Positions 26,260 to 62,185 of a stretch of DNA of 64,000 bases are shown here, piece by piece (positions within the stretch are counted from its first letter, which is position 1; each line of letters starts with the position of its first letter). The translations under genes were made by a program, and so were the position numbers. Origin of the DNA: Podospora anserina (Eukaryota); NCBI GenBank assembly GCA_017654855.1, contig CM030335.1, positions 1,240,001 to 1,304,000 on the forward strand, read 5' to 3'. A model generated the notes under the pieces. The model was not told where the DNA came from. It did no database searches and was given only the letters and a program-made list of their open reading frames with translations.

Positions 26260-26701
26260 TGTCACAGTTAACCCAACAGCAGGCCGCGCCACATGTGGGG
26301 CGCAGGACGTCCCTAGCCAATCATTAGAGAAGTCAGGAGACAGCCAATCAGGGCTGGACGAAAGTGCTATGGCGCCAAGACACACGAGCACTCTGCAGGA
26401 TGCAAGATGCTACGAGTGATCAGAGGCATAGCACGACGAGCACTTTGCAGGATGCAATGTGCTATGGGTAATCGGGGCCGTAGCAGGGCGAGCACCTCAG
26501 GGCCCCAGGATCTATATATACGGAGGAACTGGCTGGTGTAGATAGACAGTTCCGCAGTATGCAATCCACAGTTGTATTCACGGTATCTTGTGTTTACATT
26601 GAGACATCTTGTTGTGCACTGTCTAGCTGCACCGAACCAATTGTCAGAAGTTACCTTCAACCCGTATCCCTTTCAGAGGTTCTGTACAGGGGTTCGTCAC
26701 A
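26260..26701 (+). mobile_element. Solo LTR of the main family, U3 type b
   Basis: TGTCACAG..TTCGTCACA, exact TSD ATTAA, shared core, little RIP. Confidence 0.93.
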
Positions 26702-28312: not shown

Positions 28313-28967
28313 ATATTTAACTATATATAGAAACGTTATTATAAAATTGAAGAATTTTTTCTTTTACCTTGTAAATCGTTTACTATAATTCTACTATAAT
28401 ACTTTATTCTATCTACTTTACCGCCGGAATCCTTTATATTATAACCTCTAAACTTTTATAATATTTTAAATATATACGTGATAAGATTCTATATTATAAG
28501 TTTAATATTAACACCGCCTCTAACTATATTTTTCCGTCTTTTTCTACCGCAATTTATTACTCTATAGTAACCTGAGCAATAGAAAAGTAAAATAGATTCG
28601 AACGTAAAGAGTAAATAAAAGCTTAAAGATTAACTTTTAAAATTAATTATTAAATTTATTCGGGTAAAATAAATATATTACTTTCTCCGTACTTGCGACA
28701 AGCGTTTTTTTTCGCGGGATATCTAGGAGGAAGATACTTAAGTAGCGTAGTCCGTAATTATAGTATTATTTAATTCTTTACCGGGTACTCCTACGCGGCC
28801 GGACGGCGCCTGAAATATTAGCCTGTAATCTTCTTACGTTCCGGACCTTTCTTTAAGCTTTAACTAACCTTCCGACCTTTCCTTCGATCTTAATATAGCC
28901 GGTTTCTTCCTTCCTACCTATATAAGGCACCGCTGGTAACGTACCTTTTATTGCTTAAAGTAATTAA
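28313..28967 (+). pseudogene. Antisense accessory ORF of element X: Zn2Cys6-like cluster, coiled coil, acidic/aromatic tail
   Basis: 28405-28497 reads Y-x2-Y-x6-Y-x8-Y-x2-Y-x6-YY (TAY = RIP product of TGY Cys); tail PDLSLSFN*PSDLSFDLNIAGFFLP; ends approximate. Confidence 0.7.
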
Positions 28968-29009
28968 AGTGTATAACGTTAACTATACTTAAATTCCTTT
29001 ATACTTTCC

Positions 29010-29083
29010 AACCTCGTAATATAATATATAATATATTAATTATTATATCGAAGGTATAGATAGGTTCGATTCCCGTCGAGGTT
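29010..29083 (+). ncRNA. tRNA-like element (antisense) in element X
   Basis: 74 nt; AACCTCG/CGAGGTT acceptor-like stem; intact B-box GGTTCGATTCC at 29063-29073; A-box position RIP-degraded. Confidence 0.6.
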
Positions 29084-32000
29084 CTCCGAATTTTAAGTTT
29101 ATAGAAACCCTTTCGTAAACTTAAATACATTCTTTTTAATTATCCTATTAATAATATATTTTCGAAATTTTTTATAGTAATTGAAGTACATGGTATTAAT
29201 TAAACCTAGGTTCCTTCTTTTTTTATTAACCTCGTAGTATAATCTATAATACGTCGTTCACTCAATTAAAAGCGTAAATTCGATTCCTATCGAAGTTTTA
29301 TATGTAAATATTGGTTTTTTATTCAAATTATTTTCGGTATTACTAGTAAAAGTCTTTCTATTTATTGAAATAATTAATATTCATTTCCAGTTTCTATAAA
29401 CTATTTATAACAGAATATTTTAATTAATTAACTAAATATTTTTATTTATCTTTATTAAATTATAAAATTAACATTTTTTATATCGGGGTTTTTTGTCGTT
29501 TTTCGATACTTTTGACGTATTAATTTTATTTACCGGTAATACGGATTTTAAAAGTAAAAAATAAAAAGTATATAACCTTAAATATATTATATTAAATAGC
29601 TTGAATTGAAATACCGTTTCCGATATCTTTCATTTAACCTTAAAAATCTTATTTTTTTATAATTTTTTTTTTACTAAATCTCTTAATATAAATATTATAT
29701 ATAGAAAGGAATATTATATCTCTCCCTTTAAAGCCAGGTCCCTCGAGTTTTTTAGTATTATAATATTTCCGTATCTTTTTCTTTATAAACTCTAATTCAT
29801 TTTAAACTTCCCGTAAAATATATATAATGTATTTACTTTAACCTTAATCCTAAATACTCTAACGTTAAGTCCCTACGATAAGTCTACTTTATATTTAAAA
29901 TTTACGAAAAATAATGTAACTTTATTTATTTTTCCTAATAACATATTATATATTGATTATATTATAAATACTAATTTAACTGAATACGTTTACTCGAAAT
30001 TAATATCATTCCGTAAATACTGTTCTATAATTTAATTAAACCGTTCCGTTTCATTATTTATTTAAAGGTAATGAACCGAAAATACTTTACTTATTATCCT
30101 TAACCTCGTTATTAATGCTTTTTAAAAATTTTAATATAAACATGGTATCGAGGTTTATGATAATTTCCTTTCATTATGTATATATGATTATAATATACCG
30201 TAATATTATATCCGTTAATTCCTTTACCGATTAAATTTTCTTATAAAGTAAAAAGTATGTTTCTTTAGTAAATCTATCAATTATTATTACTTATCTCTGT
30301 ATTTAACGTTAGTTACTATATTTTTAGATTTTAATAATTATTAATAAAGTTTATAGTAATTAAACTCTAAGATTGTTCCGCCATTAATAATAATTTTAAA
30401 AATCTAAAAGGCTTATACTTTATAATCCTTATTTTTTTATACGTATATAGTAGTACAAATAAATAACCTTTTTAGCGTTATTTTTAATTCTTAATTAATT
30501 AAAGTATTATTTAAATGTTTCTAGATTCTTTATAATACTTATATATTTTTCAAGTTTCGACCCGTAAATTTTTATTATTAATATTATTTTATTATTAACT
30601 TTACATACGTTTGATTTTTATACTATAGTTTTCTTTAATTACTTTTTTCACATATTTTATAATTTTAACCTTTTTTATTAATGTTACTTTATGATATTAT
30701 TATTTAATTTCCTTTAATAATTGTCAAAAATATTTTCTTTATAATATAATATATAATACTTTATTTACGGTTAAAGCAAATATTAAAAAATATCTTTTAA
30801 CGTTTCCTTAAGTGATAATGGTAATTTCTTAAATATATTTTTATAACAATTAGCTCTCTGGTTATATACGTTTGCCCTAATATTCTCCGAATCTTTTTTA
30901 TCATTAATTTAAAAATTAAATTCCAAAAGAGATTTTAATTAATATATTTACCATACGTTAAAAGTCTTTATAATAATTAAGTATCGTAGGTTCTAATAAT
31001 TTATATAGACCTATACTGTATAATTAATATTATTAAAGTGTAGCCTTTACTTTTCGAGCTTTTCGATAATAATAAATGTTTTTTTCTTATAAACTAAATA
31101 GCTTTAACGTACCCCCTTTAATTCTTTTTAAAAAGAATTATCGGGTATAACTTTTTATTCATTATTTTATTAACTTAATCATTTACCGATCGTATAATTT
31201 AATATATTAACCTCGACTTTGAATCGTCAATTAGGGTTTAGTAATTTAAGAATTAAAGTTTTTAATAAATTTTTTAAGCTCTTGAAAGACTTACTTTTCT
31301 TCTTACCCCCACCGGAACTCTATATTCTTTTTGATCAAATAATGAAATAATTACGAAATCCCCGCGTACCCCCGGATAAATATCTAATAAAAATTTATAA
31401 ACTTTAATTCTTTTAACATATATCTATAATTATAATATGAATTAATTTTGATTCATTATAATTCTTTTAAATTTCATATAAATCTCTCTTAATAATACTA
31501 AATATTTAAATATACTATTATTTATATATAAAATTCGCTCTTTTCTTATTATTCAAAAGTCTAGCTCCGTATAGCGTATTAGATATTTTCCGTACGTATC
31601 GCCTATATTTCTTTCAAGTACATAAGTAAATAAAACTATTATTAAATAATATATCATTATTTTATTAAGGTATATCCGAAGTATATAAATAGTAAAAAGT
31701 ACAAATATTATTAATGATATTAATTAACTGGAATAGTATTATAAAGTATTTAATACAATTATAAGGTGATTGAAATATTATTTTTTATTTATTTCTTTTT
31801 TTAGTTTATATATAAATATATTTAACACGTATATTTAAATATATCAAACATTCTGTTTTAACTAATTAACTCAGTAATATAAATATCAATAATGATAAGT
31901 AAATATTTTCTACTATTTTATTATTTCATTAATACTAATTTATATATAGTTTTAGATTACTATCCTTCTTCGTTACGAAAAATATAGGGTATCTTACTAG

Positions 32001-34997
32001 CGATATAGATTCCTTAATATATCCTTTCTTTAAAATTTATTTCAATTTTTCTATAACTCTTTATTTTACTTATCTTTAATTTCATAAATCTAAAATAACT
32101 ATAGTTTAATTCATTTTTTTAATTAAATTTCGTAGTCTTATAGTCCTCGCTTTAAAAGTCCCTTTGAATAATTAGCTGTAAAAATTCAATATTTTCGGTA
32201 TTCTACCGGTACTGCTTTTTTCTCGCTTTTTTCGATACTATTATAGTAAGTATATTTACTAACATTCGATATTTTTACTAACGTTAATAATCTTATTCCT
32301 TCAATTTTACTGCCTATGTTAATAAAGTATATTATTATTTTTTATGTTCTTTACGGTAATACTATAACGGGTATTTATTTATTTTATCCTTTAATCTATG
32401 TATATTCCTAATCTCTTATCGTTAATTAATTACTTTCAAAATTCTTTTGGTTGTAAGTAGCTACTATCCTTCTAATTAATATCCAAATTATGATTTTGAT
32501 ACTATAATTACCTTAAAAGTTTATCTTTTGAGGGTCCTATATTTATAATATTAAATATAATTAAAATTATTTTCTTTTAAATATAATATTTAGAAATAAT
32601 ATTTTTCCAGAAATTTTTTATATTGGCTATAGTCTTGATATAACGATTTATTTTTTATAGTATTTTAGTTTTAATATACGAATTATAATAAAATTGAATT
32701 TGTTTCTATGCTTTTATTTAATAATATTACCGCTTAAATATTTCTTAATATGTTGCAACGTGGAGATATTGGTTTTTTTTGCTTTCTCCTTATATGATAA
32801 AAATTTTATTAACGAATATTAAGTCGTTATCCTATACTTTCGCTTTACGCCGATATTTTGATAATATTATTTATAATATATTAAATGATATTAGGTTGCG
32901 CGAAGGGCAACGAGTCGTTTTTTAAGCGATTATATTATTTAAAAGCGTTTTTTTACTCTGGGTTATTTCATAATATAAAATTTTTTAATTACCCCTTTTT
33001 AATTTGCTTTTATTTTCCGTTTTTAGATTTTTTAATATTTTATTATATTTACATTTGATAGCGGTGCTTTTTTCAATTATCTCCGTAACCCATTTTATTT
33101 GATAATATTGATTAACTTTCTTTTGTTAATGTACTACGTAGTCCGGGCCTAAGTACTATTTTAATACCGCTCCTTCCTAAAAAAACTATATTATCGTCCG
33201 TATTCTTACTATCCGTATACTCCGAAGTAGTAGCTCGTATACTTTAAAGCTAACTATATTACCAGAAACCTATTCTTTAATTTAACCGGGTCCTGAACCT
33301 TCTATAAGAAATAGTTATTTAGGTTTTCGTACGCTCTTTCCTGTTTAACTATAATCTTTTTAACCGGCTATGGTTTACCCTCTTTAGTTACTTCACGTAC
33401 CGGCTAATAACTATATAGTAATTTACCTTAAGAATACTTTATATATTAATATATAATATATTAAAATTAAATGTACCCTTGGGTATTCCGGATATGAAAA
33501 TAAATTTATATTACAATTTTTCTTAAGGTATATACTATATAAAGATAAGTATATCCCCTAACCGTTTCGAGATTTTAACATTCATAACTTTCTTATTTTC
33601 TTTATATTCCTTTTTATACTTTTATATATAAGCTTTATAAATTATTCTTACGAAATAATAATTTTATATTTATTGTGTTACTTCTTTAGTATCGTTTACA
33701 GGGTAGGTCCTCTTTACTATATAAGGTTATTATTTTTAATAATTTCCGTAGCAATTTCTATAGTAATTTATATTAATCCATTTTATATACCTATGTTTAA
33801 ATCTTTCTCTTCATACTCTGCTTTTAGCCTTTCTATTACTTTTCGTAACTTTTAAATTTTTTCTTCATTCGGTATATTAACTAAAATCTTTCTCGAAACT
33901 TACTATTTTACTTTAATAATACCCGATAGTTATGACTTTATAATCCTTAGTCCTTTTAATATAATAATTCATATGATTTCTTTTTTTATTCGAATCGTTT
34001 AAATACCTTATAATCTTTTTTAAAGTCATTTACTTTACTATAATTAAAATACCCAAAGTTATTCCTACCTTAACACCGGCTTTATGGTTTTCATTATTAA
34101 ATAGCGTTACCATTTATTTGTTTTAAATATATAATACTAAAGTAATTAATATTAAATCATTCCAACTTTCGTTTATTATTAAATTAATTATTAAAGTATT
34201 CTTTATTATTATTACCATAGTAACTTTAATTATTTTTTTTCTTCCGTATAACGTTAAATTTAATGATCGTTAATTGACATAATTATAGTAATATATTTAT
34301 TAATAATATTAAGCTTCAACTCTTTATATAATTTATTCTTTACCTTTTCTTTAAAGTTATCATAAAAGGTTATATTAGTCCCTCATTATTAATAGTATTA
34401 TATAAGCTATCGATTTTAAACAAAACTATATAATTAACCGTTGTACAGGTTTAGCATAGGTTTATAAAAAACCTTTATATATATTTTACCTTATTATATT
34501 TTTTAAATTTAACTTTAAAGATTATAACAACTTTCCAAATATTCTATAGTAATTCTTTTTCAGTCCTTTAACTCTTTTTTATAATAAATATTTAGGATAG
34601 ATTGGATTTATATGAAAGCTTTATCTTGAAGTTTAATAAACGCGAACATTATTTTCAATTCTTCGTTAATAAATTAATTTAGGTATTAACGAAAATAGGG
34701 TTTAAATTAAATTAAGAATTCTTTAAGATTTATATTTCCATCCTTATAGTATTTTAATACCGGAAAGTTAGGTATTACTTTAGGTACGGCCGAAATGATA
34801 ATAATTTATTTTTATTATTATTAAACTTTATTCTCGAGCTCGTGAAAGCGTTATTTTATAATAATAAAAGTAGGTTTAGTACTGGTAGAAGGTCCCTCGT
34901 TACCTAGGCTAGGCAGGACGCCTCCTATCTTAACGTTCTAAGATCCGGCTATAGTAATGAAAAAACGTTTTTAATTTATCTATAATAGAGTCAACGT

Positions 34998-35009
34998 CAG
35001 TATATAATA
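34998..35009 (-). promoter_or_regulatory. Self-priming-type primer binding site of element X
   Basis: TATTATATACTG directly after the 5' LTR is the RIP-altered reverse complement of the LTR core CAGTATGCAATA; Y has GTTGTATACT at 35428-35437. Confidence 0.65.
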
Positions 35010-38000
35010 TATAACGAACCCCTATCTAAAACCTCTAAAAGGAATATTAATTAAAAGTACGTTTAAATAATCCTAGTTCGGTATAATTAAATGGAATATG
35101 ATAAATAGTTTATATTAATTATAATAATTAAACCACTAACGATTATAATATATATTATATACTACGGAACTATTTATTTACACTAGCTAGGTCCTCCGTA
35201 TATATAGACCTAGGGACCGTGGACCGTTGACTTATAGACGGTCCTCGGTCCACTCCTGATTGGCCGATGCTGGACCGTGGACCGTGAGCCCCGCTCGATC
35301 GCCCGGTCCAGTCCTGATTGGTTCCTTGTGGCCCTACTGTCTTCCACAACCGTGACAAACTAGGATTATTTAAAAGTACCTTTAATTAATATCCCTTTTA
35401 AAGGTTCTAGATAGGGGTTTATTATACGTTGTATACTTACTTTAACTCTATTATAGTTAATCTAAAAGCGTTTTTTTATTACTATAGCCGCACTTAATAA
35501 TATTGAAATAAGAAATATCCCGCTTGATTTAAGTAACGAAGGACCTTCCACTATAATAATTAGATCTAATATTTACGTTTGCGAAATGGTTTATTAAACG
35601 CGTTAAAGACCTTAAAAGCAATATTTAGTGGATCCGGGATTAAATTACTATTATAATAATTATACTTGAATTGATACCTAAATTTCCAGTACTAAAGTAT
35701 TTATTTTAAAGGAAAAAAAGTAAAGTGTAAAAGGTTCTTAATTTAGTTTAAAACTTATTTTCGTTATTACTTAAATTAAGTTATTAACGAAATATTAAAA
35801 GTGATTTTCGTAGCAATTAGGGTTAAAGATAGAGCTTTTATATAATTGGAACTTATTTTTAACCACTATTATAAAGAGGAGGTGGAAAAGTAGGAAAAGA
35901 TTAGGGTTTAATACTATTATATTTTTTTAAACTAAGTTTAAAGAAATATTCAAGAAACATAGTAAAATAAAAATTATATAGGAAAGGCTCGTAAACCTAT
36001 ATTAAATACGTTTAATAGTAAATTATATAGCTGTGTTTAAAATCGATAATTTACGTAATATTATTAACGATAAGGGATTAGAACAGCTTTTTGATAATCG
36101 TTTTAAGGAAAAGGTAAAGGATAGGTTATATAAGAAATCGAGGCAGGATACTATCCATTAATATATTACTATAGTTATATAAATCGATGATCGGTAATTT
36201 TAATATTATATAAAAAAAGTAATTATAAAAATTAGTATAGCAGTAATGATGTTAACAATAAATATAAATGGTAATGCTTTAATATTAATTACTCCGGTAT
36301 TATTTATACAGGACTAATAGAAGTCGACGCTATATAGTAATAGAAGCTGTAAGGCCGGGATTAAAGTAAAGGTAACTTTATATAATTTGATTATAGTAAA
36401 GTAAAATATTTTGAACAGGATTATAATGTATTTAAACAATTCAGTAAAAAGAAATGAATTACGGTAATTACTATATTAAAAGGACCGAGGGTTATAAAGC
36501 TTATAATTATTAGGTACTAAAAGTAGTTTTAAATTTGAAGGAAGATTTTAATTAATATAGTAGATAAAAGAAAGCAGAGGTCCAGAAGGTACGGGAAGTA
36601 ATAGAAAAGATAAAGGTAAAGTATAAGAAAAGAGATTTTTCAATATATAAATTTTTAAGGAAATTACTACGGAGGTTATTAGAGACGATAGCCCTACATA
36701 ATAGTAAGGACTTACTTAGTAAATCATACTAAAGAAATAATACGAATCATAGAAAATAAATATTATAGCTCTAAAAACTTGAATATAAGAGATAAAAGGA
36801 ATTTTAAAAAACATACATAAGGTTATTAATATTAAAATTGTAAAACAAGGTACCGAAATAAAGTTAATTTTATTACAGTTCGTACATCAAATTAAAAGAC
36901 AATTATCAAAAAAGGAATAGATTATAATATAAGAACTATTTCCGATGTAAAAGGTTCATAGAGAAATGTTATTTGTAAATATTATAGCCGAAAGGAAAAT
37001 AATTCTGATTATATCTAATATTTCTAATATAGAACCTTCGAAAGACAGAATCCTAACGTCACTAGAATATAACAACTATCCTCTAAATATTAAAGGGATA
37101 GTAGCTATTTATAATTATGACAACCTTAAAAGCATTTAATTAACAATAGAACATTGAAAGTACGTATAAAGCAAAGTGTCGGATAAGTACCCTTTACAGT
37201 ACTACCGTAAAGAACCTGAAAAATAATAATATATGTTGTGAACATAAGCGGTAAAATTAAAGAAATATGGTTAACGACGTTAGTAAAGATATCGGAGGGT
37301 AATATATATATTTATTATAATAGAATAGAGAAAGGTGAGAAAAAGGTGGTACTAATAGAACATCGAGGATATTTAGTTTTTACGGTTAAATGTTTAAAGG
37401 GACTTTTAAAGCAGGGACCGTAGGAATACGAAATTAAGTTAAAAGAAGGCATTAAACTTTGACTATTTATGGTCTATTATATTAACGATAAGTAAAGTAA
37501 TGAATTACGGAAATACCCAATAAAAGATTTAAAGAAAGAATATACTATGGAGCTTATGTCGTTCATAAAATACCTTATATTTTTAGTGCCGAAGAAAAAC
37601 GGTAGTTTACGATTATATATAGATCATCATTAATTAAATAACGAAACGGTAAAAAATATGTACCCGCGACTATTAATACTTAAATTATAAAATCAATTAA
37701 TTAGGGCACGATACTTTATATATTTCAAAATATATACTAAGTACGCTTATATATAAATTAAGAAAAAGAACAAATAAACAATGGCGTTTTATATACCTTA
37801 TAATTATTTTAAATATTTTGTAATAGTATTCGAATTACTTAATATATTTATAACGTTTCGATTTTTTATTAATTATATAATTCCAAAATACTTTACTAGA
37901 ATAATAATATATTATTTTAATAACGGTTTTATTTATTCCTATACATTAAAAGAATATAAGTAATATATACGAAAGATAAAAAACGCGTTATATAAAACCG

Positions 38001-38298
38001 GATTTTCAATTAATAAAGAAAAAAACGAGTTTATATATAAAAAATAATATATTTAAAGTATTTAATATCATTAATTAAAGTATAAATAAAACTTAAGAAA
38101 ATCATAGTAATTAAGGATTAGCCTATACTATAATTATCAATATATAATAAAGAACTTTTAAGATTCGTAAATTTTTATTGAATATTTATCCGGAAATATA
38201 TAGGGATCGCGTAATTACTTAACTATTTGCCTCAAAAAACGTAGAGTTCCGGTAAAAGTAGGAAAAGGAGTAGGCCTTTTAAGAACTAAAAGAAGCTA

Positions 38299-40161
38299 AC
38301 GTGCGTGATAAGCGAGCCGAACAGACAAGCGAGCCGAACACTTTCCAACGCAGCGCAACCCTCCAACTTCTTTCACCAACTTTACCACCAATTCGCTATA
38401 AATTCACTTCCAACCGAATCTCGAATTATTTTAGCCCTCGAAGCTATCAAAAACGACCCAAATATTAGTCTTCGACGCGCAGCTAAGCTTTATAACGTAC
38501 CAATTACAACTCTCTATGACCGACGCGCTGGCCGGCTTGCACGACGCGATATGCCAGCCAACTCACGCAAGTTTACCGATTTGGAAGAGAAAACGATTGT
38601 TTAATATATTATTGAGCTATGTACACGCGTATTCCATCCTCGGCGTTCGTATGTAGAAGATATAGCCAATCGATTACTATGCGAACGCGACGCGCCTCCT
38701 GTTGGCGTACGATAGGCTTATAACTTCGTTAAACGCTAGCTAGAACTTCGGACGCGTTTTACGCGTAAATATAATTATTAGAGGGCCAAATGCGAGGATC
38801 TAAAGGTTATTAGCGAGTAGTTTACTTTCGTACGGAATACTAAGGCTAAGTACGGTATCGTGGATAACGATATTTATAATTTCGACGAGACTAGGTTTAT
38901 AATAAGTATTATTTTTACGGGTATAGTAGTTATAACTTCTAATAGCCGTAATAAGGCGAAACTAGCCTAGCCTAGTAACCGCGAATAGGTAATAGTAATC
39001 TAAAGAGTTAATACCCTCGGCTAAACTATCCCTCTTATTATTATTTTAATTACGTAATATTACTTTATTAACTAATATACTAAGTATAATTTACTATTTA
39101 CTTAGCGTATTATAATTATCGATAATAATTAGATTATTAATATAATAAGTTTAAATTAAATTAAATACTTCGATTATTATATAGCGTCCTATATAAAAGG
39201 TAAATACCGGTTATTAATCCTCGATAGTTACGAAAGTTATTACTCGACCGAATTTAAGTGTTATTACTAGTAAAATAATATTATTACGCTCTACATACCT
39301 CTATATTCTTTCTACCTCCTCCAGCTACTTAATATTAATTGCTTTAGGCCGCTAAAATAGGCGTACGGTCGCCAGATCGAGGACTTAATACGTATATATA
39401 TTAACTATATAAGTAAGCTCGAGTTCCTCTATACTTTCCGCGAAACTTTTTTCGCCTCTATAATAGAGAAGAATATATAGAGTAGCTTTATAGGTGCTAG
39501 CCTTATACCGTACGATCTAGAGAGGATACTTTTTAAGCTAAATATAAAGCTTCGTACGCTAATACCTCTAAACTTACGGCCCGGTACTATATAACCTTAG
39601 GTCTCCCAGATACTATATAACCCTCGAGAAACTAACTCACAGTTAACGCTCATTAAAACTCGCATTACTAACCATCAAAATAGCTCCCCGACTTCAATAT
39701 TGGCTACTATGGACCAGCTTACTATAAGTATAATGGCTGTGATGCACTAGGTGGCTCTCCTTCGTGCAAAGAACACTACACTCCGTAAGGCTAACGAGGC
39801 ACTAAGTAAGCGCCGGAGAGCCAAAAAAAACACGTATGCGGCTTGGAGGGTCACTTACTGTACAAGAGGCACAGGATCTACTGGATCAGAAGGCTGTAGG
39901 TGAGCAGGTAATCCAGGAAGATCGACAAAGTGGTGGTGGTGCAAGGGAGTCACGTCCGAAGATTCAGTGCTGTGGCGTGTGCGGTAAGCCAGGCCATAAT
40001 GCACGCACCTGCAAGGAGGCTGCAGAATCATCTGATTTATCTGTTTCTGGTTCAATTATTGTGGTTTCCTAGTATTGTGGTTGTGTAATTGAAGATAGTT
40101 GTAGTGGGGTGGTGGAAAGTGTTCGGCTCGCTTGTCTGTTCGGCTCGCTTATCATGCACGT
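38299..40161 (+). mobile_element. Fot1/Pot2-type DNA transposon inserted in pol of element Y
   Basis: TA TSDs; TIRs ACGTGC(G/A)TGATAAGCGAGCCGAACAGACAAGCGAGCCGAACACTTTCC; transposase ~38398-40072 with SLRRAAKLYNVPITTL HTH and CGVCGKPGHNARTC knuckle; many RIP stops. Confidence 0.95.
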
Positions 40162-42178
40162 TATTTTAAAAAAACCCGGTACATAAATTATTAAACTTTA
40201 ATCGACCGTTCGAGGTAGAGGCTAATTAATATCTTAAATTATACGATCGCTAAATGATTAGGCTAGCGAAATAGTAACGGAAAATGGTACTTAATACCTT
40301 TCTTTTCGAAAACATTAAAGAAAATACGTTAAAATTATTTAATTTATAATAAAGAACTATCTGTTACTATCGAAATATTCGAAAGGTAAAGGCTATATTT
40401 TAATAGTATTAATTACGAAATATAAATCTATATAAATTATAAAAACCTATAATGCTTTATTATTATAAAGGTTTTTATCGTACGGTAAACGCAATAACCA
40501 AAGTTTCTTTCGGAGTTCTTTTTTTAAATTAATTAAAAAAAGGTTCGGAAAATATTAGGGTAAACGTATTTAGCCGGCAAGCCGATTACTATAAAGATAT
40601 ATCTAGGAAAATACTATTATTATTTATAAAGATACTAACAGGTATTTTTTAGTATTCACTCTAGCTATAATAATGTATTATACAGAATATCGTACGTAAG
40701 TTACTTTAAATAAGTATTAAAGGAAATTAAGTAACAATATTATAGAGTAATATTAATAAGAAATATTAGAGCCGTAAAGTATTTAAAAAAATAATTAGGG
40801 AAAATTACAGTATAAAGATCGAGTGTACGTAAAGTTATGTAGCAAAACGTTATTAATTATAGAAACCTTTAGGTCGAAGCTCGAAGGGTATATAAATATT
40901 ATAAAGACTATAAAAAAAATTAAATAGTACTTTAATTAGTTAAGGATTTAAAATAACGTTAAAAAGCTATTTAGTTATACCATATGTAAAAAGAATAAGA
41001 GTTACGAAGTATAAGCTTTATATATTTTAAGAATTACTGCTAATAGCGGAACGACCATAAAATTTAATTATAATAAACCTTATTACTAAGTTACTAGAGT
41101 TAAGAGATAGAGTAATTATCGTTAAGTATAATAATTTATTAAAGGTAGTCGATAGACTTATCAAATAAGTATACTTCTTACCTACCCTATAAAGACACCT
41201 AATGGATAAAGCAATTAACAAATATAGTACTACAGTATATTATAGTAATATATATATAATTAAAGGAATTTATTTCGGACCGCGATATTAAATTTATATT
41301 AAAGTTTTAAGAAACGTTAATAACGAGGCAAGTGGTAATAAATAAGGCGTTTTCGGCTTATCACCTCTCAATAAGTAGTAAAATAAAATAATTGAACTAA
41401 AGTATAGAATATTATCAACGGAATTATATCATTTTTAAATAGGACGACTAAGTTAAACTATTATTTATAGTATAACTAATATATAATATATCGCTAATAG
41501 AGACGACTAAAATTATACTATTCTTTATAAACATTAAATATAAAGTCGACCTACGGTAAGGATTTAATATTAAGGTACCTAGAGTTCAAATTAGGGTAAA
41601 TTAGTTATATATATTCTATAGCAAACTTAAAGAAGAATTAAAATTTATAAGGGAATGAATACGAAAATACTATAATAGTAAAAAGTTTAAAGAACTTTAC
41701 TTTAAGGGGAAGGATATAGTATTCCTTTCTCTATATAATTTACGTATTAAGAGACTTAGTAAGAAGCTAAACTATAGGAGAGTAGACCTATTTAAGGTTA
41801 GAAAAAAATACCGGAAATAGAATTCGAATTAAAATTATTTAGTACGATACGTTTACAATTATATACCTTTTATATTTTACTTTCAAAACCTATACTACTA
41901 ATGAGTTAAATTAATACGTAAGAGGTAACGGAGGACGAAAAAAGAAATTTAAAATAGAAAACATATTAGATTTACGGTTTTATAAAGGATAATTAAAATA
42001 TTAAATTAATTAATTAAGATATCCGGCCATAGATAATTCGTAGAAATTAGCGGTAAATCTTAATTGCCTGAATAATCTAAAAGAATTCCACCTGTAATAC
42101 CTCAACCGATTAAAACTAATATAAGTAAAAGAAACGTGTTAAACTCTAAAGGAAAAGCTAAAGATTTTAAGATATAGG

Positions 42179-42249
42179 AACCTCGACGGGAATCAAATCT
42201 ATACCTTTAACGTAATAATCAACGTACTATATATTATACTATTAAAATT
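42179..42249 (-). ncRNA. tRNA-like element (antisense) in element Y
   Basis: Minus strand TAGTATAAT..TATTACG..AGATTTGATTCCCGTCGAGGTT, homologous to the X copy, B-box RIP-damaged. Confidence 0.5.
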
Positions 42250-42289
42250 AAGAAATACCTAGGGACTATTATATAATTAACGTTATATA

Positions 42290-42881
42290 TTAACTTCCCT
42301 AAGTAGTTAGTAGAGCCTCGTCGGTAATATTTTAACTAGCTAGGAAGAAAAGACCGGCCACATTGAAATCTAAAAGAAAGTCGGAAGGCCAGTTTAAATT
42401 TAAAAAAGGATCTAGAAATAAAAAGTCGGAACTGAGGGTCATAGAAGACACCGCAGTAAAATAATCCCGAAGAAAAACGGAACGAATAAACTCCTTTTTA
42501 CATTTAGTTTTTTCTAACTCCTCTACACTATCGAAACCACAAAAGACGGCTCACGATATTTGCTCTAACTGAGCTTTTTTTAAATAACGACAACGACGGA
42601 CCCTAACGTAAGTTACTTCGGTGAGTTCCTCGGCCTTTTTTAATTTAGCTTCGACGGTATCGTACTAAAAGATAATTTTAAAAAGCTAATCAAAAGGTTT
42701 ACATAAAGCGTCGTAATAAAGTAAAGTCTCCACGAATATATTTATCGTAATATAAAAAATTAAAAGAGAAAAGGACGTAAAAAAGATTATAGGAAATATA
42801 TACGGAGTAAAATAAAGGTATCGTAAATAAATCATCGAGGTTTTTTCTATGAAGCTTTATCGAGCAAACGCTTTTAAATAT
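42290..42881 (-). pseudogene. Antisense accessory ORF of element Y (~197 codons)
   Basis: Y-x2-Y-x6-Y-x9-Y-x2-Y, then a frameshift; VEAKLKKAEELTEVTYVRVRRCRYLKKAQLEQIS*AVFCGFDSVEELEK; tail DPFLNLNWPSDFLLDFNVAGLFF. Confidence 0.75.
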
Positions 42882-45800
42882 TATAAGAATAAAGAAAAAA
42901 AAGGAAAATAAACGGTTATTCTAGGGTTTAAATCGATAGACTTTCGACTTAAAAGGAGGGATATTATATTATAATTAAGCTGACGGGTAAAGCGAACCGT
43001 ATACGGAGTACGATACGTATAACTAATTGCTAATAGAATTAAATGGGACGGGAATAGCCTTGTCTGATGAATTGTTACTAAGAGTTAATAATATAACGTG
43101 GGACTATTACTAAAGGTTAATGATCTAGGACTGGATTATTCTAAGGGTTAATGATCCAGGAAACTACTAGGTATATATATACGGAGGAACTGGATAGTGT
43201 AGATAAATAGTTCCGTAATATATAATATAAGTTATAATCGTTAATATCTAGACTATTGTGATTAAGACAAGCCATTTATTGTATATTGTTCAGCTGTACC
43301 GAACCAAGATTGTTTAGAAGTGCTTTTAACTAGTATCCCTTTTAGAGGTTCTGGATAGGGGTTCGTCACATAGATGTATTGTATCTGGAAGTTTAAAAAG
43401 TACTCATAATTCTTATTTTGGTTATTTTAGAATTCTTATGAATTTATTACTATAAGTAATTAATTTCTTTAACATTATTTTCATATATGTTTCAATAGTT
43501 TTCTAATATCCTTGAATAATTAATTAACATTAAAATCTTCTTATAAATTCATTAAAGTAAAGGCTAAACATAACACTTTAAAAACATAATAAAATCACCA
43601 TTAAAGTTAGGTATTTAAATACCTATTTATAAGTTTTAAATAGACTTTTGAAAAACTATCGTTTTGAAAGTTTAAAGATTGTTATGAAACATTTACTTTT
43701 AATTTTTCATAATATTGATTTTGATATACTAAACTCTAATATTTTGTTACTATTATTAGTTATGGAAACAAATTTTTGTTTTTATTTTATAGAAGAAATA
43801 TTATTTTAAGGATATTTAAAATATAAAAAGTAATATTGTATATAACTCTATTTAAACTTTATTCGGAGTTTTAAGCAGTTGATAAATTATCTCTATCATA
43901 CAAATATCCTAAATAAAACTACTAAGCCTTAATCCTATTTTTCGAGAACATACCAACCTGTTTATTTTTTATCTTTAAATTAAATTAACTAGCAATAACC
44001 AAAAATCAATGTATTTTTGAGTTATATTTACTACTTATTTATACTGATAAATTCCCTAAACTATTATCGTTAAGAAAAAGAGTTTGAATAAGATATAGTT
44101 CAAATTTCATGTATAATTATTTCAACCGTATTAATTCAATACAACTACGTGGATAATTTTAATTATATTCTACAGAAAAGATAAGTGTCTGAATATTAGA
44201 GAGTATAAGATTTGATTTCATAAAAATTAACAGTATGATTTTAATTCAGGCTTATTAAATTTTTTGGTTCTAGGAATAAATTGTTATACATAATTCATAG
44301 TATTGAAAAAGATAAGTTGTATAGAAGGATAACAAATAACTTTCAATTAAAGAAAGTTTTCGGTAGTAAAATATCTTATTTACTTATTTAGTTATAAGTT
44401 TACTATTACTGTCCTTAGTTACTTTATCAACTTATCTTTTAGCTTCGGATTATACCTTTCAACGCATTTCTAAAACGTATTTTATAAATAGTTCATTTTA
44501 CTATTATAGTATAGTTTTTTATTATAGTTAATTATATACTAAATTCAAGTTTTAATATTAAATATAGTTACAAGAGAATTAAAATCAAACTTGTACTTTA
44601 CATTTACCGTTATTATTTGATTATTGTAATTAATTTACATACACCAGTAAATAAGTAAGTATAATGTGTATCAGTACGGTTATTTTAGTACTTATAGAGT
44701 TTACTTTAAATTTTTAATATTTCCTAAGTTATAGACACCTATTTGGTTAGGTTTTCATATGTAAGAGCTTCTTCATGAAGATTAAGGTAAAGAAGTCCAG
44801 GGTTATAAAATATTTATAAAGATAGAAGGAAGATCTTCTTAATTTGACACGTCAAGTTATTATTGATACATTATTTTTTATATAGGTATGATGGATGTAA
44901 AATAGAAATTAATATATTTATATTTATTGAAGATATATAAACGTGGATGTATAATATTATACTAATAATGATCCTTTTAGTAATTTATATAAATAATTTA
45001 GGTAAGATAAACGAGAAAATATAAATATGTTAGAAAATTAGTTTTCTAAAAGGTAAGAGATTTAAAAAGAACTTAAATAAAAGAAAATGTGATATATATT
45101 CCACTAGTTAGTTTTTGAAAGGTAATTTAACCCTTTATTTAAAAAGTTAAGTCTAATAATTTAAAAGAGATTACTTCCGTATATAAAGAAAAATATTTAA
45201 ACCCTATTTCCCATTGAATAAAGCACTATTTTCAATATAAGCTCCTCTTTATTTTACTTCTTCTATCAATATAACCCTACATTCCCTCTCACTATTATTA
45301 GTATCTTCTTCAAATTTATTAATATTAATATACTTTACTGTTTTTTTATTCACTTTTGACATATCATTTACTTTCTAATATTCCTTTTATTTTCTGTAAT
45401 ATATTATTTTACCTCACTATTAAGATTATAATAAATATTTTCTTCTAACCTATTATCTATTGCTATTTTTTTGGGGTTATTTTCATTTATATTAATAATC
45501 ATATCTTTATCCTTGCTATTAAATTTTCTTTTTCTTTCGTTTCCATTTATTTCAACCTTTGCTACGTTTATTATTATTATTAATACTTTTATCTTCTATC
45601 TTTAATTCAAATGATTAATAATGAATTTTTAATACTGATATATATTTTATCTGTTAGTGTGACGAACCTCTATCCAGAACCTCTGAAAAGGATACTAGTA
45701 GAAGGCACTTCTGAACAATCCTGATTCGGTACAGCTATACAGTATACAACAAATGCCTTGTATCAATCACAGTAGTTAAGATACCAACAATTGTAACTTA

Positions 45801-46179
45801 TATTTATTCTATATTGCGGAACTATCTATTTATACCAGGCAGTTCCTCCGTATATATAGATTTACTAATATTCGAAATTCTTAACTTTTAACAATAATGC
45901 CTTTCTAGAATATTAACTTTTAATAATAATCCCGCACTAAATTATTAACTGTTAATAATAATCCTATAAGTAAAGCCATTCTCTATCCTAATTAAAATTA
46001 TTAATAACTAACTATACGCATTATATTCCGTATACGGTCCGTCCTACGTATAAATATAGTTATAATATAATACCCTTCTTTTTAGGTTAAAGTCCCGTCG
46101 ACTTAAGTCCTAAAATAACCGTTTATTACCTATCTTTCTCTTCCTATAAATATTCCGCTTACCTTTCTTTATTTTTTAC

Positions 46180-46793
46180 GATATTTAACTATATAAATAA
46201 ATAAAATATTTTAAACTACTTAATCCCTAAAGCTTTATAGAGATTTCGTTTCGTAAGTCGACTAGAATATCTTCGTTTTATTCTGTATATACTTTTTACA
46301 ATTTTTCCTACGTCCTCTTTTATTTTATTTTTTTATATTGCTATAATTATATTTACTAAGCCTTTCCTTATTATAATACCCTAAGCGTATAAATAAGTTA
46401 GTCGTTTAAATTATTCTTTAACATAATATTATTTAAATTTAATAAAAATTAAATAAAGAAATGATAAAGGTAACCTATATTAGAGTTCGTCGGTTTTATT
46501 AAAAAAAGGTTTTATTAAAGCGAATATCGCGAAATGTTTTTTATAGTTTCGATAACGTAAAGAAACTAAAAAGGGCTCAGCGCGAACAGTACTCCGCTCG
46601 TTCCGCTTTTCCTCGGGATCGTGCCGTAATAAAGCTTTTTATTACTATTCCTTCCGACTTCTGTTTCCTAAATTCTTCTCTAAACCTTAATCAATCTTCC
46701 GATCTTTCTTTATCTCCTAATATAGCCGCTCCTTCCTTCCTAACCAGTTAAGGTGTTACTAATAATACGACTCTAGCTTTTTATAGTAAATAA
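46180..46793 (+). pseudogene. Antisense accessory ORF of element W
   Basis: 46279-46374 reads Y-x2-Y-x6-Y-x9-C-x2-Y-x6-YY, with the fourth Cys still TGC (46339-46341); KVTYIRVRRF..SFDNVKKLKRAQREQ follows. Confidence 0.7.
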
Positions 46794-53809: not shown

Positions 53810-54213
53810 TATAACGAACCCCTATCCAGAACCTCTGAAAAAGACACTGGTTAAAGGCACTTCTGAACAATCCCGGTTCGGTACAGCTAAACAGTGTACA
53901 ACAATGGCTTGCCTCAGTCACAACATCTAAAATACCACGATTGTGACTTATATTGCATACTACGGAACTGTCTATCGATACTAGCTAGTTCCTCTGTATA
54001 TATAGACCTTGGGACCGTGGACCGTTGACTTACAGACGGTCCTCGGTCCACTCCTGATTGGCCGATACTGGACCGTGGACCGTGAGCTCCGCCGCGGTCC
54101 CCGGTCCCCATCTTATTGGTCCGTTTGCCTACCTGGACCGTGAGCCCCGCTCAATCGCGCGGTCCAGTCCTGATTGGTCCGTCGCGGCCCCACTGTCTTC
54201 CAGAACCGTGACA
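53810..54213 (-). mobile_element. Solo LTR, U3 type d, inserted near the integrase N-terminus of Z
   Basis: Exact TSD AAAGA; near-identical to 48151-48555. Confidence 0.93.
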
Positions 54214-55579: not shown

Positions 55580-56210
55580 TTTAAAAATTCAAAATATATT
55601 ACTAGCGGTACCTTAATTAATTAAGAAAAAACGACTGGGTACATTTGGGTTTAAGCAAAGGTCGGAAGGCTAATTAAGGTTTAGAGAACGATTTAGGAAT
55701 GAAAAGTCAGAAGGGACGGTAACGGAAAACTCCGCTATAGGACGGGCCCGAGTGAAGGCGAAACAAATAAACTACTCTCTACGTTTAACTTCTTTTTAAT
55801 TTTTCTATATTATTAAGCTTATAAGAGACGGTATGAAATATTTTATTAAATTAAAGGCTTTTTTACTTTTATAAATCAGCGACTTTATTTATAAAACTAA
55901 ATCATTTAGCCTTTACCTTTTTACATTAAAGTTAAGACGGTTATGATATATAATAATTTTACAGAGGTAGAAATACATAAACCGCTAGCCCTTAAAAAAA
56001 GCTAATTAAAAGCAATATAAAATGAGTGGCGAGAGGAATCGGAAAAGAAAAGTTCGTAAGGAAGTAACTAGCGTTTATACTAAGTATAACAAATAATTAT
56101 AATAATAAAATTAAATAAAACAATATTAAAGAAAGCATTATGATAAATTATTTTAAAATAAGTTACTTTTGAGCGGTCAAAAACCCGGTTGAAAATATTA
56201 TAAAAATCAA
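55580..56210 (-). pseudogene. Antisense accessory ORF of element Z
   Basis: YT*YKR*LLPYELFFSDSSRHSFYIA, read as de-RIP C-x2-C-x6-C-x9-(C)-x2-C; conserved PSDL tail near 55660; ends approximate. Confidence 0.6.
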
Positions 56211-59200
56211 AGAAGCAAGAAAATGAATTTCCTATATTGATAATAAAAATAAAGATTAAGTTATAGGGACTTCGGCCTAGAGAAGGAATATTATATTACG
56301 GTTTTAAAAAAACGGGGACGTTAGAATCAATAAGATTAAAGTGGGCGGATAAGTAACGCCTATAGGGTAGGAAATAGTACGGGTCAAGGGATTAAGGATT
56401 TAGGAGATAGGCCTGTGGATCTATAGATTTAGAGCTAGATTTAAGGATTTAAAGTTTAGAAACTAGATATAGGCAATTTAGGAAATAAAAAAGTAGATTT
56501 AAGTATAAAGGTATTTAGAGCCCTAGGTCTATATATACGAAGGAACTAGCTAATATAAATAAATAGTTCCTTAATATATAATTATAAGTTACAATCATTA
56601 GTATTTGAATTATTATAATCGAGATAAGCCGTTTGTTATGTACTGTTTACCTATACCGAACTAAGATTGTTTAGAAGTACTTTCAACCAGTATCCCTTTT
56701 AGAGGTTCTGGATAGGAGTTTGTCATAAGAAGCTTAAATATTAGGACTTGTCGTATATTGTAAATGGCAGGCTAGATTCCCCACCTTAAATTAGAATATA
56801 GTATCTAAACTCTTTGAATATTATAAATAATAACTTTTTTTATACATCTTTAAGTTATGTTAAGTTACCTATAAATTTTAATACTATTAATACTATTACT
56901 ATTAACACATAGCCTTATTGCTATCTATCTTTATAAGTAATTATTTAAAATTAAAAACTCTATATTTGATTAATTTCTATAATTGTATATTCCATTTCCT
57001 GAAAGCTAATATATATATATATTTTAATAGTTATTTATTGTTTTACTAGATTATCTTAATTTTTTCGTTTTCTCCCTTGTATTTACCTCTATTAAATCTA
57101 TTACTCGGTTAGTTGATCCAAAAAGATTTCGTATTAAACAATAAACCTTTTTTGACCGTTTTTTGATATATTTTTCACTTTTAAACTTAAAATGTATATA
57201 ATTCTCATAAAGAAAACAAGGCGTCTTAAATTTGTTTTCACTTAGCTTATTAATATTGAATGTAGAAGTGTTCCGAATTTGGAATCTTCACACATTTTCT
57301 TTTGACTCGTTATTGATAGTAATACTTGAATAAATCAGGGATTATTCATAAATCATTTTTTTACAAAGATGAATAAATATTTTTTTTCTGATAATAAGAA
57401 ATAATAATATATAAGAAGTTATATATTAAGTGTTATTACTTATAAACTCTTTTAATAATTAAATTCGATGATATAAGATACATATATAGTAATGAAGTGC
57501 ATTATAGAGAGATAATATAAAAATAGATAAACGATATTATTTATATTACTTATTCATAAATAAATAAGTAGTAAGGGAGCTAGTCAGAAATTTATAGGTG
57601 ACTAGTAGTATATAAAGTATTTAAAAGGGTAAAATCTGTTATTCAATTATAAATTTATAGAGTTGAAAAATAAAGGGTAATAAATTACAATTTTATAATA
57701 TATATATAGCTTATTCTTTATAGTAAAAAGGCTTTAATTATTAAAATATTCCATGTCAGGAATTAACGTTTAAAAAATATTTTTTATTAATCTTTTTCTA
57801 TCGGTTTAAAACTATAAATAGTATACTTTAGTAATCTGTAGTAGCTAAATTATAATTATCTCCTACTTTAACTTTTACTTAATATTAGGTAAATAGTTTG
57901 TTATTTCATAGTTATATATAATTAATCAAATTCTGAGGAGTTTTACTATTTAGGAGATATTTAACAAAATAAAAGATATTTTAATAGAAATATATTATAA
58001 CTAAATTTCTTCATAAATATAATTATTATACTATTAAATTAGATTTGTATATAAATATAATATATACAAATAAAACTTTTTTAAATGTATTTTATATTAA
58101 AGAAAGAAATATTTTATTTTAAGTAAAAACAATGATGTTTTAATTGTTGAAAAATTAGTGTAGAAGATTACTTAATAAGTTATTGAATCAATAATACTAA
58201 AAGGCTTAATATTTAAAAACTAGTTTATTTACCTTACTTATTTTAATTAATTAATAAAGTAATAGCTCATAAATATCAAAGGTATTTCCATTGAATAGTT
58301 TAATAATCTAACTAATATAATAGAGTTATTAAACTAAGTAATAAATAATGATTAATAAGTCTTTTGAAGTAAGTTAGGATTTATACTTATTAAAAGTCCT
58401 AAACAATTATACATTTCTTTTTATAAGTCTTAAAGTAGAATAAATTAAATAAGTATTATATATATAAGTCGACATATTTTATATTATAACATATAAATAT
58501 ATTTATAATCTATTTCAATTAACTATTATAAGTTGATTAATTTGAAAGATATACAAATTGAATCCTAATTGATATAGAAATGTTTTATGTATATATTAAA
58601 TTCCTTTAAATAGATTAATAATTCATTAAACTTATTTTGAATACGAATAATAAATAAGATTATAATTATGAACTAATATATTTATTGTATTAACTCAATT
58701 ATACCAACTATTTATTTAACAAGATTGTTAAAATTAACATCATACTTTAATAATTTAAAAGTTAAGATGAAAAAGTTTAAGGGCTAAAATAACGCTAAAC
58801 GGTATTATGATAGGCTTTTAAAAAATATATAAAAATATGTTTCTATTCTTTAAAAAACTAATGAAAAGAATAACATATTAAATAAATATTAAAGGAGTAT
58901 AATATTAATATAATCTTACTTCTCTTTAAATAGTAAAGAAAATTTACTATTTATTATAAAGACCTAGAAAATACAACCCTTAATAGTAATCGGTATAGTC
59001 TATTGAAAGTAAAGAAAACTTTAATTAAAGTATTTAATAATAACAAAATACTACAGGAAAAGAAATGATAAAGCTAATACTTTATAATATATATTATAAT
59101 TATTAAAATATAGACTTATAAAGTAATTAAATATAGTAAGTGGAGTTGAAAGTATATGTTTTAGAAACCTTAAATCATTTAATTTCTTTTTACAACCCTT

Positions 59201-61733: not shown

Positions 61734-61767
61734 TGAAAATATTAACTTTCTTGTGGTTCTATTATAC

Positions 61768-62185
61768 TGTCACAGACCAACCATATAGCAAGGCAGAGTG
61801 GGGACTGCAGCAGGCCGTGGTGACCAGTCAAGTAACAGATAACAGCGGGGCTGCAGGACAGTGGGGCGCTCACCTCTTAGCAGAGGTGAGCCGGCTCGCC
61901 AGGAGCACTGGGTGAGCGAGGTGAGCCAGGATGGATCACCAGGAGCGCTTGGTGATCGAGGTGATCCAGGTACGGAGGTACCTGGAGGATTGAGGTCTAT
62001 ATATACGGAGGAACTGGCCGGTATAGATAGACAGTTCCGCAGTATGCAAATCAGCTTGTATTCACGGTATCTAGTGTTTACATTGAGACATCTTGTTGTG
62101 CACTGTTTAGCTGCACCGAACTAATTGTCAGAAGTTACCTTCAACCAGTATCCCTTTCAGAGGTTCTGTACAGGGGTTCGTCACA
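61768..62185 (+). mobile_element. Solo LTR, U3 type f
   Basis: TGTCACAG..TTCGTCACA, exact TSD TATAC, little RIP. Confidence 0.93.

What the first reader, a model, noticed from the sequence alone, without database searches (positions are those of the whole stretch)
61868..61957. LTR U3 subtypes are built from their own ~24-bp dyad, an operator-like array upstream of a shared TATA
Seen: type f has three 24-mers, GCTCACCTCT-TAGC-AGAGGTGAGC (61868), GCTCGCC-N10-GGTGAGC (61894) and GATCACC-N10-GGTGATC (61934). Type c has GATCATTG-N8-CAAT(A/G)ATC three times at a 32-bp period (27572, 27604, 27636). Type d has GGACCG-N12-CGGTCC 24-mers (48362, 54077). Type b has AGCAC..(GT/AT)GCT 25-mers twice (26387, 26439). 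Type a has GATCACT-N9-AGTGATC (21529, 23 bp). Type e is too RIP-damaged to read. Arm sequences differ among types (a and f are related), but span and position just upstream of the TATA are conserved. Inference: these are sites for a dimeric DNA-binding protein with fixed spacing and variable specificity.
Basis: partly seen in the sequence, partly recalled or inferred. Interest (0 to 1): 0.8.

Follow-up and report, generated by a model that had tools for sequence, protein, structure and literature searches.

The report
Retrotransposon promoter dyads track own regulator
A fungal jumping gene comes in many promoter versions, each built from its own short palindromic DNA word, and each version travels with its own variant of a small zinc-cluster protein encoded backwards inside the element, which suggests the element makes a private regulator for its own promoter.

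Summary
The dyads are real. The window holds LTRs of one fungal chromovirus family, probably Podospora crapaud. They share TATA-R-U5 but have unalignable U3s. In 12 of 14 U3 types, dyads exceed shuffles. Spans of 24-26 bp are the mode (10 of 14 types), not a fixed value. Each U3 repeats one half-site word in both orientations.

The element also carries an antisense, intron-containing gene beside the 3' PPT: a Zn2Cys6-like cluster plus a long predicted helix. Its variant matches the U3 type in 44 of 47 junctions, while chromodomain and R-U5 are shared. Linkage alone could explain that. In metagenome relatives, however, the word follows the protein rather than the surrounding DNA: L197 shares leader, 5' U3 and TATA region with L198, but protein and word with this genome's GTGATAA type.

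Best reading: an element-encoded dimer binds its own U3 and activates it. Binding is inferred, not shown. U3 subfamilies and an antisense gene (brtn) are in print; I found no paper on the dyads or the zinc cluster. This scan noted the gene in other genomes, and the co-variation elsewhere in this genome, where it was put down to linkage.

The parts
61768..62185 (+). Type f solo LTR (TGTCAC...GTCACA, 226-nt U3), 5-bp target duplication TATAC
61868..61891 (.). f dyad 1, GCTCACC-N10-GGTGAGC (10-bp perfect arms)
   Evidence: spacer 10 in 25 of 26 f-type copies
61894..61927 (.). f dyad 2 plus a second right half-site 9 bp further on
61934..61967 (.). f dyad 3, GATCACC-N10-GGTGATC, plus a second right half-site 9 bp further on; tandem duplicate of dyad 2
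61966..61985 (.). Further palindrome CCAGGTAC-N4-GTACCTGG between array and TATA; a related segment occurs in e-like U3s
61994..62185 (+). Shared TATA core, R and U5; 62041-62049 is complementary to the primer-binding site, so the likely RNA start (self-priming, inferred)
   Evidence: (366 core matches genome-wide)
21385..21762 (+). Type a LTR; dyad at 21529-21551
26260..26701 (+). Type b solo LTR (duplication ATTAA); dyads at 26387 and 26439
27469..43372 (+). Full-length RIP-damaged type c element (flanks TAGAT): 5' LTR 27469-27809 plus about 35358-35426, primer-binding site at 35427, 3' LTR 42967-43372; dyads at 27572, 27604, 27636
27810..35357 (-). Full-length RIP-damaged type d element nested in the type c 5' LTR (flanks AACTA); 3' LTR about 27810-28215
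28316..28525 (+). Broken remnant of the type d antisense zinc-cluster exon, next to the type d 3' LTR
   Evidence: best purine/pyrimidine match to L138 in the window, 67 of 90
42640..42860 (-). Expected place of the type c antisense exon; too damaged to read as a cluster (approximate)
   Evidence: L173
45658..46067 (-). Type c 3' LTR after a PPT
46175..46400 (+). Broken antisense exon remnant of type c with Cys/Tyr spacing (approximate)
   Evidence: L174
48151..48555 (-). Type d solo LTR (duplication TAACG); dyad at 48362
53810..54213 (-). Type d solo LTR (duplication TCTTT); dyad at 54077
55975..56190 (-). Broken remnant of the type e antisense exon (approximate)
   Evidence: L175, Zn group 7
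56294..56727 (+). Type e 3' LTR after a PPT

Best explanation
The U3 arrays are binding sites for a protein that the retrotransposon encodes itself. Shown: between the chromodomain and the PPT lies an antisense gene for a ~200-aa protein: basic N-terminal arm and helix, six-cysteine cluster, intron, long predicted helix, acidic/aromatic tail. Its 5' end faces the 3' LTR. Each U3 type carries its own variant of this gene and its own half-site word, beside CCAAT and GCCARG sites that most types share. Inferred: the gene is transcribed from the 3' LTR region; the protein dimerises through the long helix, binds the convergent half-sites and raises transcription from the shared TATA, probably also its own. 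Gene and U3 sit together at the 3' end of the RNA, so they move as one cassette between gag-pol and R-U5 by template switching. Protein and word can then drift together into separate specificity groups.
For: Anatomy of an undamaged, RT-deleted copy, L115. The intron position agrees with database protein models P0002 and P0004 and with GT...AG or degenerate-donor introns in L196-L199. Family of 1208 representatives at E<=1e-3, six cysteines nearly invariant in 115 aligned proteins. Model pLDDT 87 with a 66-residue helix. 11 of 12 Foldseek rows for the full model are Zn2Cys6 DNA-binding domains, all weak; cluster rmsd 2.2-3 A over 31-33 residues. Gene variant matches the dyad cluster in 44 of 47 junctions, ARI 0.90 against a permutation maximum of 0.15; chromodomain (0.84 same group vs 0.81 different) and R-U5 (0.66 vs 0.61) do not separate by group. 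Across metagenome contigs: L196 and L197 (82-84% identical to L115 over arm plus cluster) and L204 (50%) have GTGAYA arrays like L115; L198, L199, L200, L202 and L203 (54-59%) have TGATCC arrays. L197 and L198 share leader 0.92, 5' U3 0.85, TATA region 0.95 and integrase 85%, yet differ in protein (56%) and word. L197 and L115 share 0.47-0.60 in those DNA segments and 59% in integrase, yet share protein and word. The word is confined to U3: 8 GTGATAA in 177 nt against 1 in 4656 nt of the internal region.
Against: No binding or expression data. Gene and U3 are about 100 bp apart, so linkage fully explains the within-genome match; an earlier agent concluded this (e1-7123520). The cross-host test rests on two protein clades and about four LTR lineages, and conversion of the middle segment would leave gene and array in phase without selection. 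Similar words occur with dissimilar proteins: type f (TGAKCC) and cl7 (ATGATCC) exons are no closer to L198 (TGATCC) than background (0.63-0.64). L206 shows no dominant word. No family member reached the Pfam Zn_clus cut-off (11 of 44 weak hits; 14.3 and 20.1 bits), no fold match had E<=0.001 and the best Z was 2.5. The Cys2-Cys3 loop has no conserved lysine pair, whereas Gal4 reads CGG there (recalled). Only type d contains CGG. Activation rather than repression is inferred only from the acidic tail and the TATA-proximal position.
Confidence: 0.52

Rival explanations
1. The dyads are sites for host transcription factors (GATA-type, Zn2Cys6 or others), and each U3 type taps a different host signal, as proposed for Tnt1 and crapaud. 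The antisense gene does something else and matches the U3 only because it is linked.
For: Host-type motifs are enriched in the U3s: GCCARG 16 against 3.8 expected, CCAAT 21 against 5.0. One word contains GATAA and another CGG (host motifs recalled). Gene and U3 are adjacent. PMC10787394 (section 8) proposes promoter selection or recombination.
Against: It does not explain why the gene is as divergent among types as the U3 while the chromodomain and R-U5 are shared. Nor does it explain why word and protein stay together when the DNA between them follows another lineage.
Confidence: 0.23
2. The element's protein does bind the arrays but represses (copy-number control, exclusion of same-type copies) or opens chromatin, as VANC does, rather than acting as a plain activator.
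For: Same co-variation evidence. Proximal half-sites start 9-20 bp above the TATA core in many types, close enough to block it. VANC precedent (PMC5735166, passages).
Against: The Gal4-like layout with an acidic/aromatic tail suggests activation (inference). The words are confined to U3, not spread through the element.
Confidence: 0.15
3. The palindromes are by-products of duplication and fold-back during reverse transcription, or act as RNA/DNA hairpins, as in maize Sirevirus LTRs. No protein reads them.
For: Tandem duplications of 30-40 bp build several arrays. Some spacers pair (f dyad 1, b). Sirevirus palindromes form hairpins (PMC4728375, abstract).
Against: In d, c and cl4 the spacer does not pair. 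The same word recurs in rearranged arrays in other hosts. GGATCAC-N10-GTGATCC recurs with different spacers within L198 and L199. U3 of the 5' LTR lies upstream of the inferred RNA start.
Confidence: 0.1

Closest known systems
crapaud Ty3/Gypsy family of Podospora (Westerberg et al. 2024, PMC10787394; read: abstract, sections 5, 6, 8, 12, 16, term search; supplement 1 searched, supplement 2 gave no text)
   Same: Two ORFs (gag; RT-RNaseH-integrase-chromodomain), LTRs of about 400 bp, 14 subfamilies that differ only in U3 above the TATA box, shared internal region, RIP damage. Earlier notes of this scan call the genome Podospora. Very probably the same family.
   Different: The main text has 0 hits for zinc, palindrom and antisense and states that promoter binding sites are unknown. 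I had no crapaud reference sequence, so identity is by description only.
brtn, antisense gene of Boty-like elements of Botrytis and Sclerotinia (Zhao et al. 2011, PMID 21802103: not held; seen only as cited in PMC8365987, PMC4227169 and PMC7264820)
   Same: Extra antisense gene between pol and the 3' LTR of a fungal Gypsy element.
   Different: The review PMC7264820 (parts 1-2 of 3 read) gives the function of such genes as unknown. I could not compare sequences, and I do not know whether Zhao et al. saw a zinc cluster.
VANC proteins of Arabidopsis VANDAL transposons (PMC5735166, passages)
   Same: Element-encoded protein with family-specific short motifs that multiply by tandem duplication and evolve with the protein.
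   Different: DNA transposon and unrelated protein; motifs arrayed in one orientation across non-coding regions; anti-methylation role shown. Here an LTR element, with convergent dyads confined to U3.
Gal4/Put3/Ppr1-type Zn2Cys6 factors
   Same: Six-cysteine spacing 2-6-8-2-6 (81 of 118 proteins with the pattern), followed by a long helix; weak sequence hits to Put3 and weak fold hits.
   Different: Below the Pfam cut-off; extra helix before the cluster; basic VRRGR motif in the second loop instead of lysines in the first; about 200 aa only; most candidate half-sites lack CGG.
Foamy-virus Tas/Bel1 (recalled, not checked)
   Same: Retroelement-encoded DNA-binding activator of its own U3, specific to its own virus.
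   Different: Sense gene of an animal retrovirus, unrelated protein, not known to me as many co-existing variants within one family.
Tnt1 U3 subfamilies (PMC1838419, abstract) and maize Sirevirus palindrome region (PMC4728375, abstract and opening)
   Same: Modular, fast-evolving U3 on a shared backbone; palindrome-rich cis region.
   Different: Copia elements of plants; read as host-factor sites or hairpins; no element-encoded cognate factor in what I read.

Membership tests
Ty3/Gypsy chromovirus | TG...CA LTRs with 5-bp target duplication, PPT | tested here: met
Ty3/Gypsy chromovirus | gag, RT, RNase H, integrase, chromodomain in that order | tested here: met
   Pfam on L115 (this copy lacks RT); PF00078 about 2.1-2.4 kb behind the TATA core in other copies
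Tf1/sushi-type self-priming elements | Primer-binding site complementary to the RNA 5' end in R | tested here: met
   9-nt complement AGTATGCAA; the RNA start itself was not measured; the priming mode is recalled
crapaud | U3-only subfamilies, conserved 3' half, ~400-bp LTR, two ORFs | tested here: met
   against PMC10787394 sections 6 and 12
crapaud | Sequence identity to the reference element | not testable with these tools
   No reference sequence held; LTR motif not found in supplement 1, supplement 2 unreadable
Zn2Cys6 binuclear cluster (PF00172) | Six conserved cysteines with 2-6-(5 to 12)-2-(6 to 8) spacing | tested here: met
Zn2Cys6 binuclear cluster (PF00172) | Score above the curated cut-off of 21 bits | tested here: not met
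   best 20.5 bits; 11 of 44 weak hits, 2 of 2 weak
Zn2Cys6 binuclear cluster (PF00172) | Fold of the cluster | tested here: inconclusive
   top rows are Zn2Cys6 domains but E about 1 or more; Z 2.4 at rmsd 1.8 A over 33 residues
Zn2Cys6 binuclear cluster (PF00172) | Conserved basic residues between Cys2 and Cys3 that read CGG (recalled) | tested here: not met
   loop is variable; basic motif sits between Cys5 and Cys6
Zn2Cys6 binuclear cluster (PF00172) | Zinc binding, dimer, sequence-specific DNA binding | not testable with these tools
   needs biochemistry
brtn-like antisense genes | Antisense gene between pol and 3' LTR | tested here: met
brtn-like antisense genes | Homology to Brtn | not tested
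   sequence and paper not available
VANC-like self-targeting system | Element-specific motif, multiplied by tandem duplication, co-varying with the protein | tested here: met
   co-variation only, linkage not fully excluded
VANC-like self-targeting system | Binding shown and loss of silencing | not testable with these tools
   needs EMSA/ChIP and chromatin data

The most novel reading that the evidence does not exclude
One widespread fungal chromovirus lineage carries an exchangeable regulator-operator cassette. Selection for private activation has split it into many orthogonal specificity groups that co-exist in one genome and persist across hosts, much like phage immunity groups. Each subtype would switch on only itself and deny its activator to competing or defective relatives.
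Probability: 0.35. Interest if true: 0.92.

Novelty: new variant of a known kind. Interest (0 to 1): 0.74.

Why it matters
It would give one answer to two questions that papers leave open: why crapaud-type U3s diversified while the rest stayed shared (PMC10787394), and what antisense extra genes of LTR retrotransposons do (PMC7264820). It would be an LTR retrotransposon with its own sequence-specific regulator; my paper searches found none in fungi. It also offers a natural set of protein-site pairs, in a family of over 1000 representatives, for studying how zinc-cluster specificity changes, and hundreds of solo LTRs would be type-specific switches near host genes.

Tried and rejected
Homodimer prediction: no verdict (score 0.15, alignment not used). 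RNA runs for the antisense gene: none was listed, so no reads were laid. Wide fold search: best Z 2.5, nothing clear. Viral-contig scan: 1 locus, L208, a chance match with a stop and no LTR. Of 12 metagenome loci, L207 is a false hit, L205 has no upstream DNA, L201 was left out as a damaged near-duplicate of L200/L202, and L206 shows no dominant word. The ESM Atlas gave only unnamed ascomycete clusters. A fixed-offset control for the integrase end was noisy and was replaced by an anchored chromodomain control (33 of 47 junctions). A strict 24-bp rule was rejected. A simple one-word-one-protein code was rejected. Paper searches for prior description listed nothing on dyads or a zinc cluster in these elements; subscription papers, including Zhao 2011, are not covered. 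Look-ups of earlier findings returned nothing.

Full report
Setting. The window is gene-rich to about 21 kb and AT-rich with RIP-type damage after that. Self-comparison shows about a dozen LTRs that share about 195 bp from a TATA core to GTCACA and differ upstream. The 24-nt core has 366 matches at up to 2 mismatches in the genome, and 0 for the reversed control. From 112 loci plus the window I extracted 169 distinct LTR copies in 28 clusters, 16 of them with two or more members. Many are solo LTRs with 5-bp duplications, including the type f copy at 61768-62185. An undamaged but RT-deleted copy (L115) encodes gag with a zinc knuckle, RNase H, integrase and a chromodomain. RT lies about 2.1-2.4 kb behind the TATA core in other copies. 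The primer-binding site is complementary to 9 nt in the LTR, as in self-priming Tf1-type elements (recalled). The description matches crapaud of Podospora (PMC10787394, sections 6 and 12), and earlier notes call this genome Podospora; I could not compare sequences.

Observation. The f, d, a and second b dyads are as written; the c dyads are damaged in the window and perfect in L028. I chose one least-damaged natural copy for each of 14 types, leaving out length variants and truncated or nested clusters. Twelve of 14 have more dyads than 500 shuffles at p<0.05; the R-U5 of 8 of them does not stand out. Ten of 14 have a perfect dyad of span 24-26, but other spans are enriched too. Each U3 is an array of one half-site word (for example TGAKCC, CGGTCC, GTGATAA, ATCGATC, ATGATC, TAGATCC), often with a second right half-site 7-9 bp on. 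Spacers are constant within types: f 10 in 25 of 26 copies, cl4 10 in 19 of 19, cl6 11 in 11 of 11, cl5 12 in 12 of 13, cl3 11 in 20 of 21, d 10 in 19 of 23. Indels are rare everywhere in these alignments, so this is weak. Across types, GCCARG (16 against 3.8 expected, 11 of 14 types) and CCAAT (21 against 5.0, 12 of 14) are enriched; the names PacC site and CCAAT box are recalled.

The candidate protein. Between chromodomain and PPT, on the opposite strand, L115 reads C-x2-C-x6-C-x8-C-x2-C-x6-C, then a GT-AG intron, then a heptad-like segment and an acidic/aromatic tail. This copy is broken in its second exon. Database protein models continue in frame across the same position (P0002, P0004). 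A profile finds 1208 representatives at E<=1e-3 and 478 at 1e-10; the nearest Atlas clusters are unnamed and mostly ascomycete. The six cysteines are nearly invariant in 115 aligned proteins. The model of P0002 (pLDDT 87) has a helix, the cluster and a 66-residue helix. Fold searches rank Ppr1, Hap1, Pho7, Put3 and Gal4 first, none with E<=0.001. Pfam Zn_clus hits 11 of 44 proteins, all below cut-off; one source names a member 'Zn(2)-C6 fungal-type domain-containing protein'. The first loop lacks conserved lysines and the second carries VRRGR. So it looks like a Gal4-type factor but I do not file it under PF00172.

Co-variation in this genome. A PPT-LTR pattern has 70 matches (4 for the control). 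The loci I held gave 68 junctions. Clustering on purine/pyrimidine codes, which ignores RIP, gave 9 gene groups with 53 junctions and 15 singletons (nested, deleted, heavily damaged or chance). Six of the 53 lack a full U3, leaving 47. In 44 of 47 the gene group goes with one dyad cluster (ARI 0.90, permutation maximum 0.15). The exceptions are one nested LTR (L044) and two diverged U3s with a related word (L141, L163). Chromodomain (0.84 against 0.81, 33 junctions) and R-U5 (0.66 against 0.61) do not separate by group. In the window, the type d 3' LTR has the type d exon remnant beside it. Gene and U3 are about 100 bp apart and are copied together in reverse transcription, so this match alone does not show binding. 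An earlier agent said so (e1-7123520), and for within-genome data I agree.

Test across hosts. A metagenome scan gave 12 loci: 10 have pol on the opposite strand, L203 is too short for pol but has a PPT-LTR junction, and L207 is a false hit. Among the 9 used, L196, L197 and L204 have GTGAYA arrays (8, 11, 4 sites) like L115 (9), and their arm-plus-cluster is closer to L115 (84, 82, 50%) than to L198 (61, 56, 36%). L198, L199, L200, L202 and L203 have TGATCC arrays (9, 8, 5, 5, 5). L206 has no word. The DNA between gene and array does not follow this split. L197 and L198 share leader 0.92, 5' U3 0.85, TATA region 0.95 and integrase 85%. L197 and L115 share 0.47, 0.60, 0.55 and 59%. So protein and word stay together while everything around and between them follows another lineage. 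One linked block cannot give that pattern; it needs selection against mismatches, or repeated conversion of the middle segment only. Limits: two protein clades, about four LTR lineages, and no formal phylogenetic test. Against a simple code, type f and cl7 have TGATCC-like words but exons no closer to L198 than background, and the exon that goes with type a is unknown.

Mechanism. Most likely (0.52) the protein dimerises, binds the convergent half-sites and activates the shared TATA, with CCAAT and GCCARG sites giving common host input. It may instead repress or act on chromatin (0.15). Host factors plus linkage (0.23) and hairpins or by-products (0.10) remain. Anatomy and co-variation are shown; expression, dimer, binding and sign are inferred.

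Novelty. U3-only subfamilies are published for crapaud, with binding sites stated as unknown and no mention of palindromes, zinc or antisense in the main text; its PDF supplement, which I could not read, may bear on this. An antisense gene in fungal Gypsy elements is published (brtn; seen only through citing papers). Element-encoded factors with co-evolving motifs are known from VANDAL transposons and, from recall, foamy viruses. Searches listed no paper on this combination. This scan noted the antisense zinc-cluster gene in 32 findings in at least 7 genomes and the co-variation once in this genome. New here are the 14-type dyad statistics, the 47-junction match and the cross-host discordance. 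Verdict: a new variant of a known kind, interest 0.74.

Noticed in passing
U3 of 14 types, e.g. window 61898-61903: GCCARG (PacC-like, name recalled) recurs in 11 of 14 otherwise unrelated U3 types, often inside the dyad spacer or next to the TATA; 16 seen against 3.8 expected. It suggests common pH control.
   Followed up: partly
L115:2120-6776: Undamaged copy (GC above 50%) lacking about 1.9 kb including RT, with matching U3 ends in both LTRs and a broken second exon in the antisense gene; a recent non-autonomous copy.
   Followed up: partly
L023, L044, L014, L066; window 27810-35357: Copies often insert into LTRs of the same family, several times within U3 arrays.
   Followed up: no
L196-L202 and L204, just upstream of the PPT: A conserved short hairpin, GTCTTTCG-N3-CGAAAGAC or similar, in the leader of the antisense gene.
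   Followed up: no
L086, L130, L094: Mosaic U3s: the 5' part of one type joined to the dyad module of another; in L094 the gene-to-dyad pairing is kept despite a different 5' part.
   Followed up: partly
window 22752-24615, 38297-40164, 63181-63986: A 1.9-kb repeat with about 50-bp terminal inverted repeats, probably a RIP-damaged DNA transposon; third copy partial.
   Followed up: no
window 60680-61741: About 1 kb of A-rich simple repeat (AAAT/AAAAT) directly before the type f solo LTR.
   Followed up: no
window 1749-2834, 5710-6567, 18893-20515: Ordinary-looking genes; by recall MYG1-like, ureidoglycolate-lyase-like and RluA-type pseudouridine synthase; not tested.
   Followed up: no
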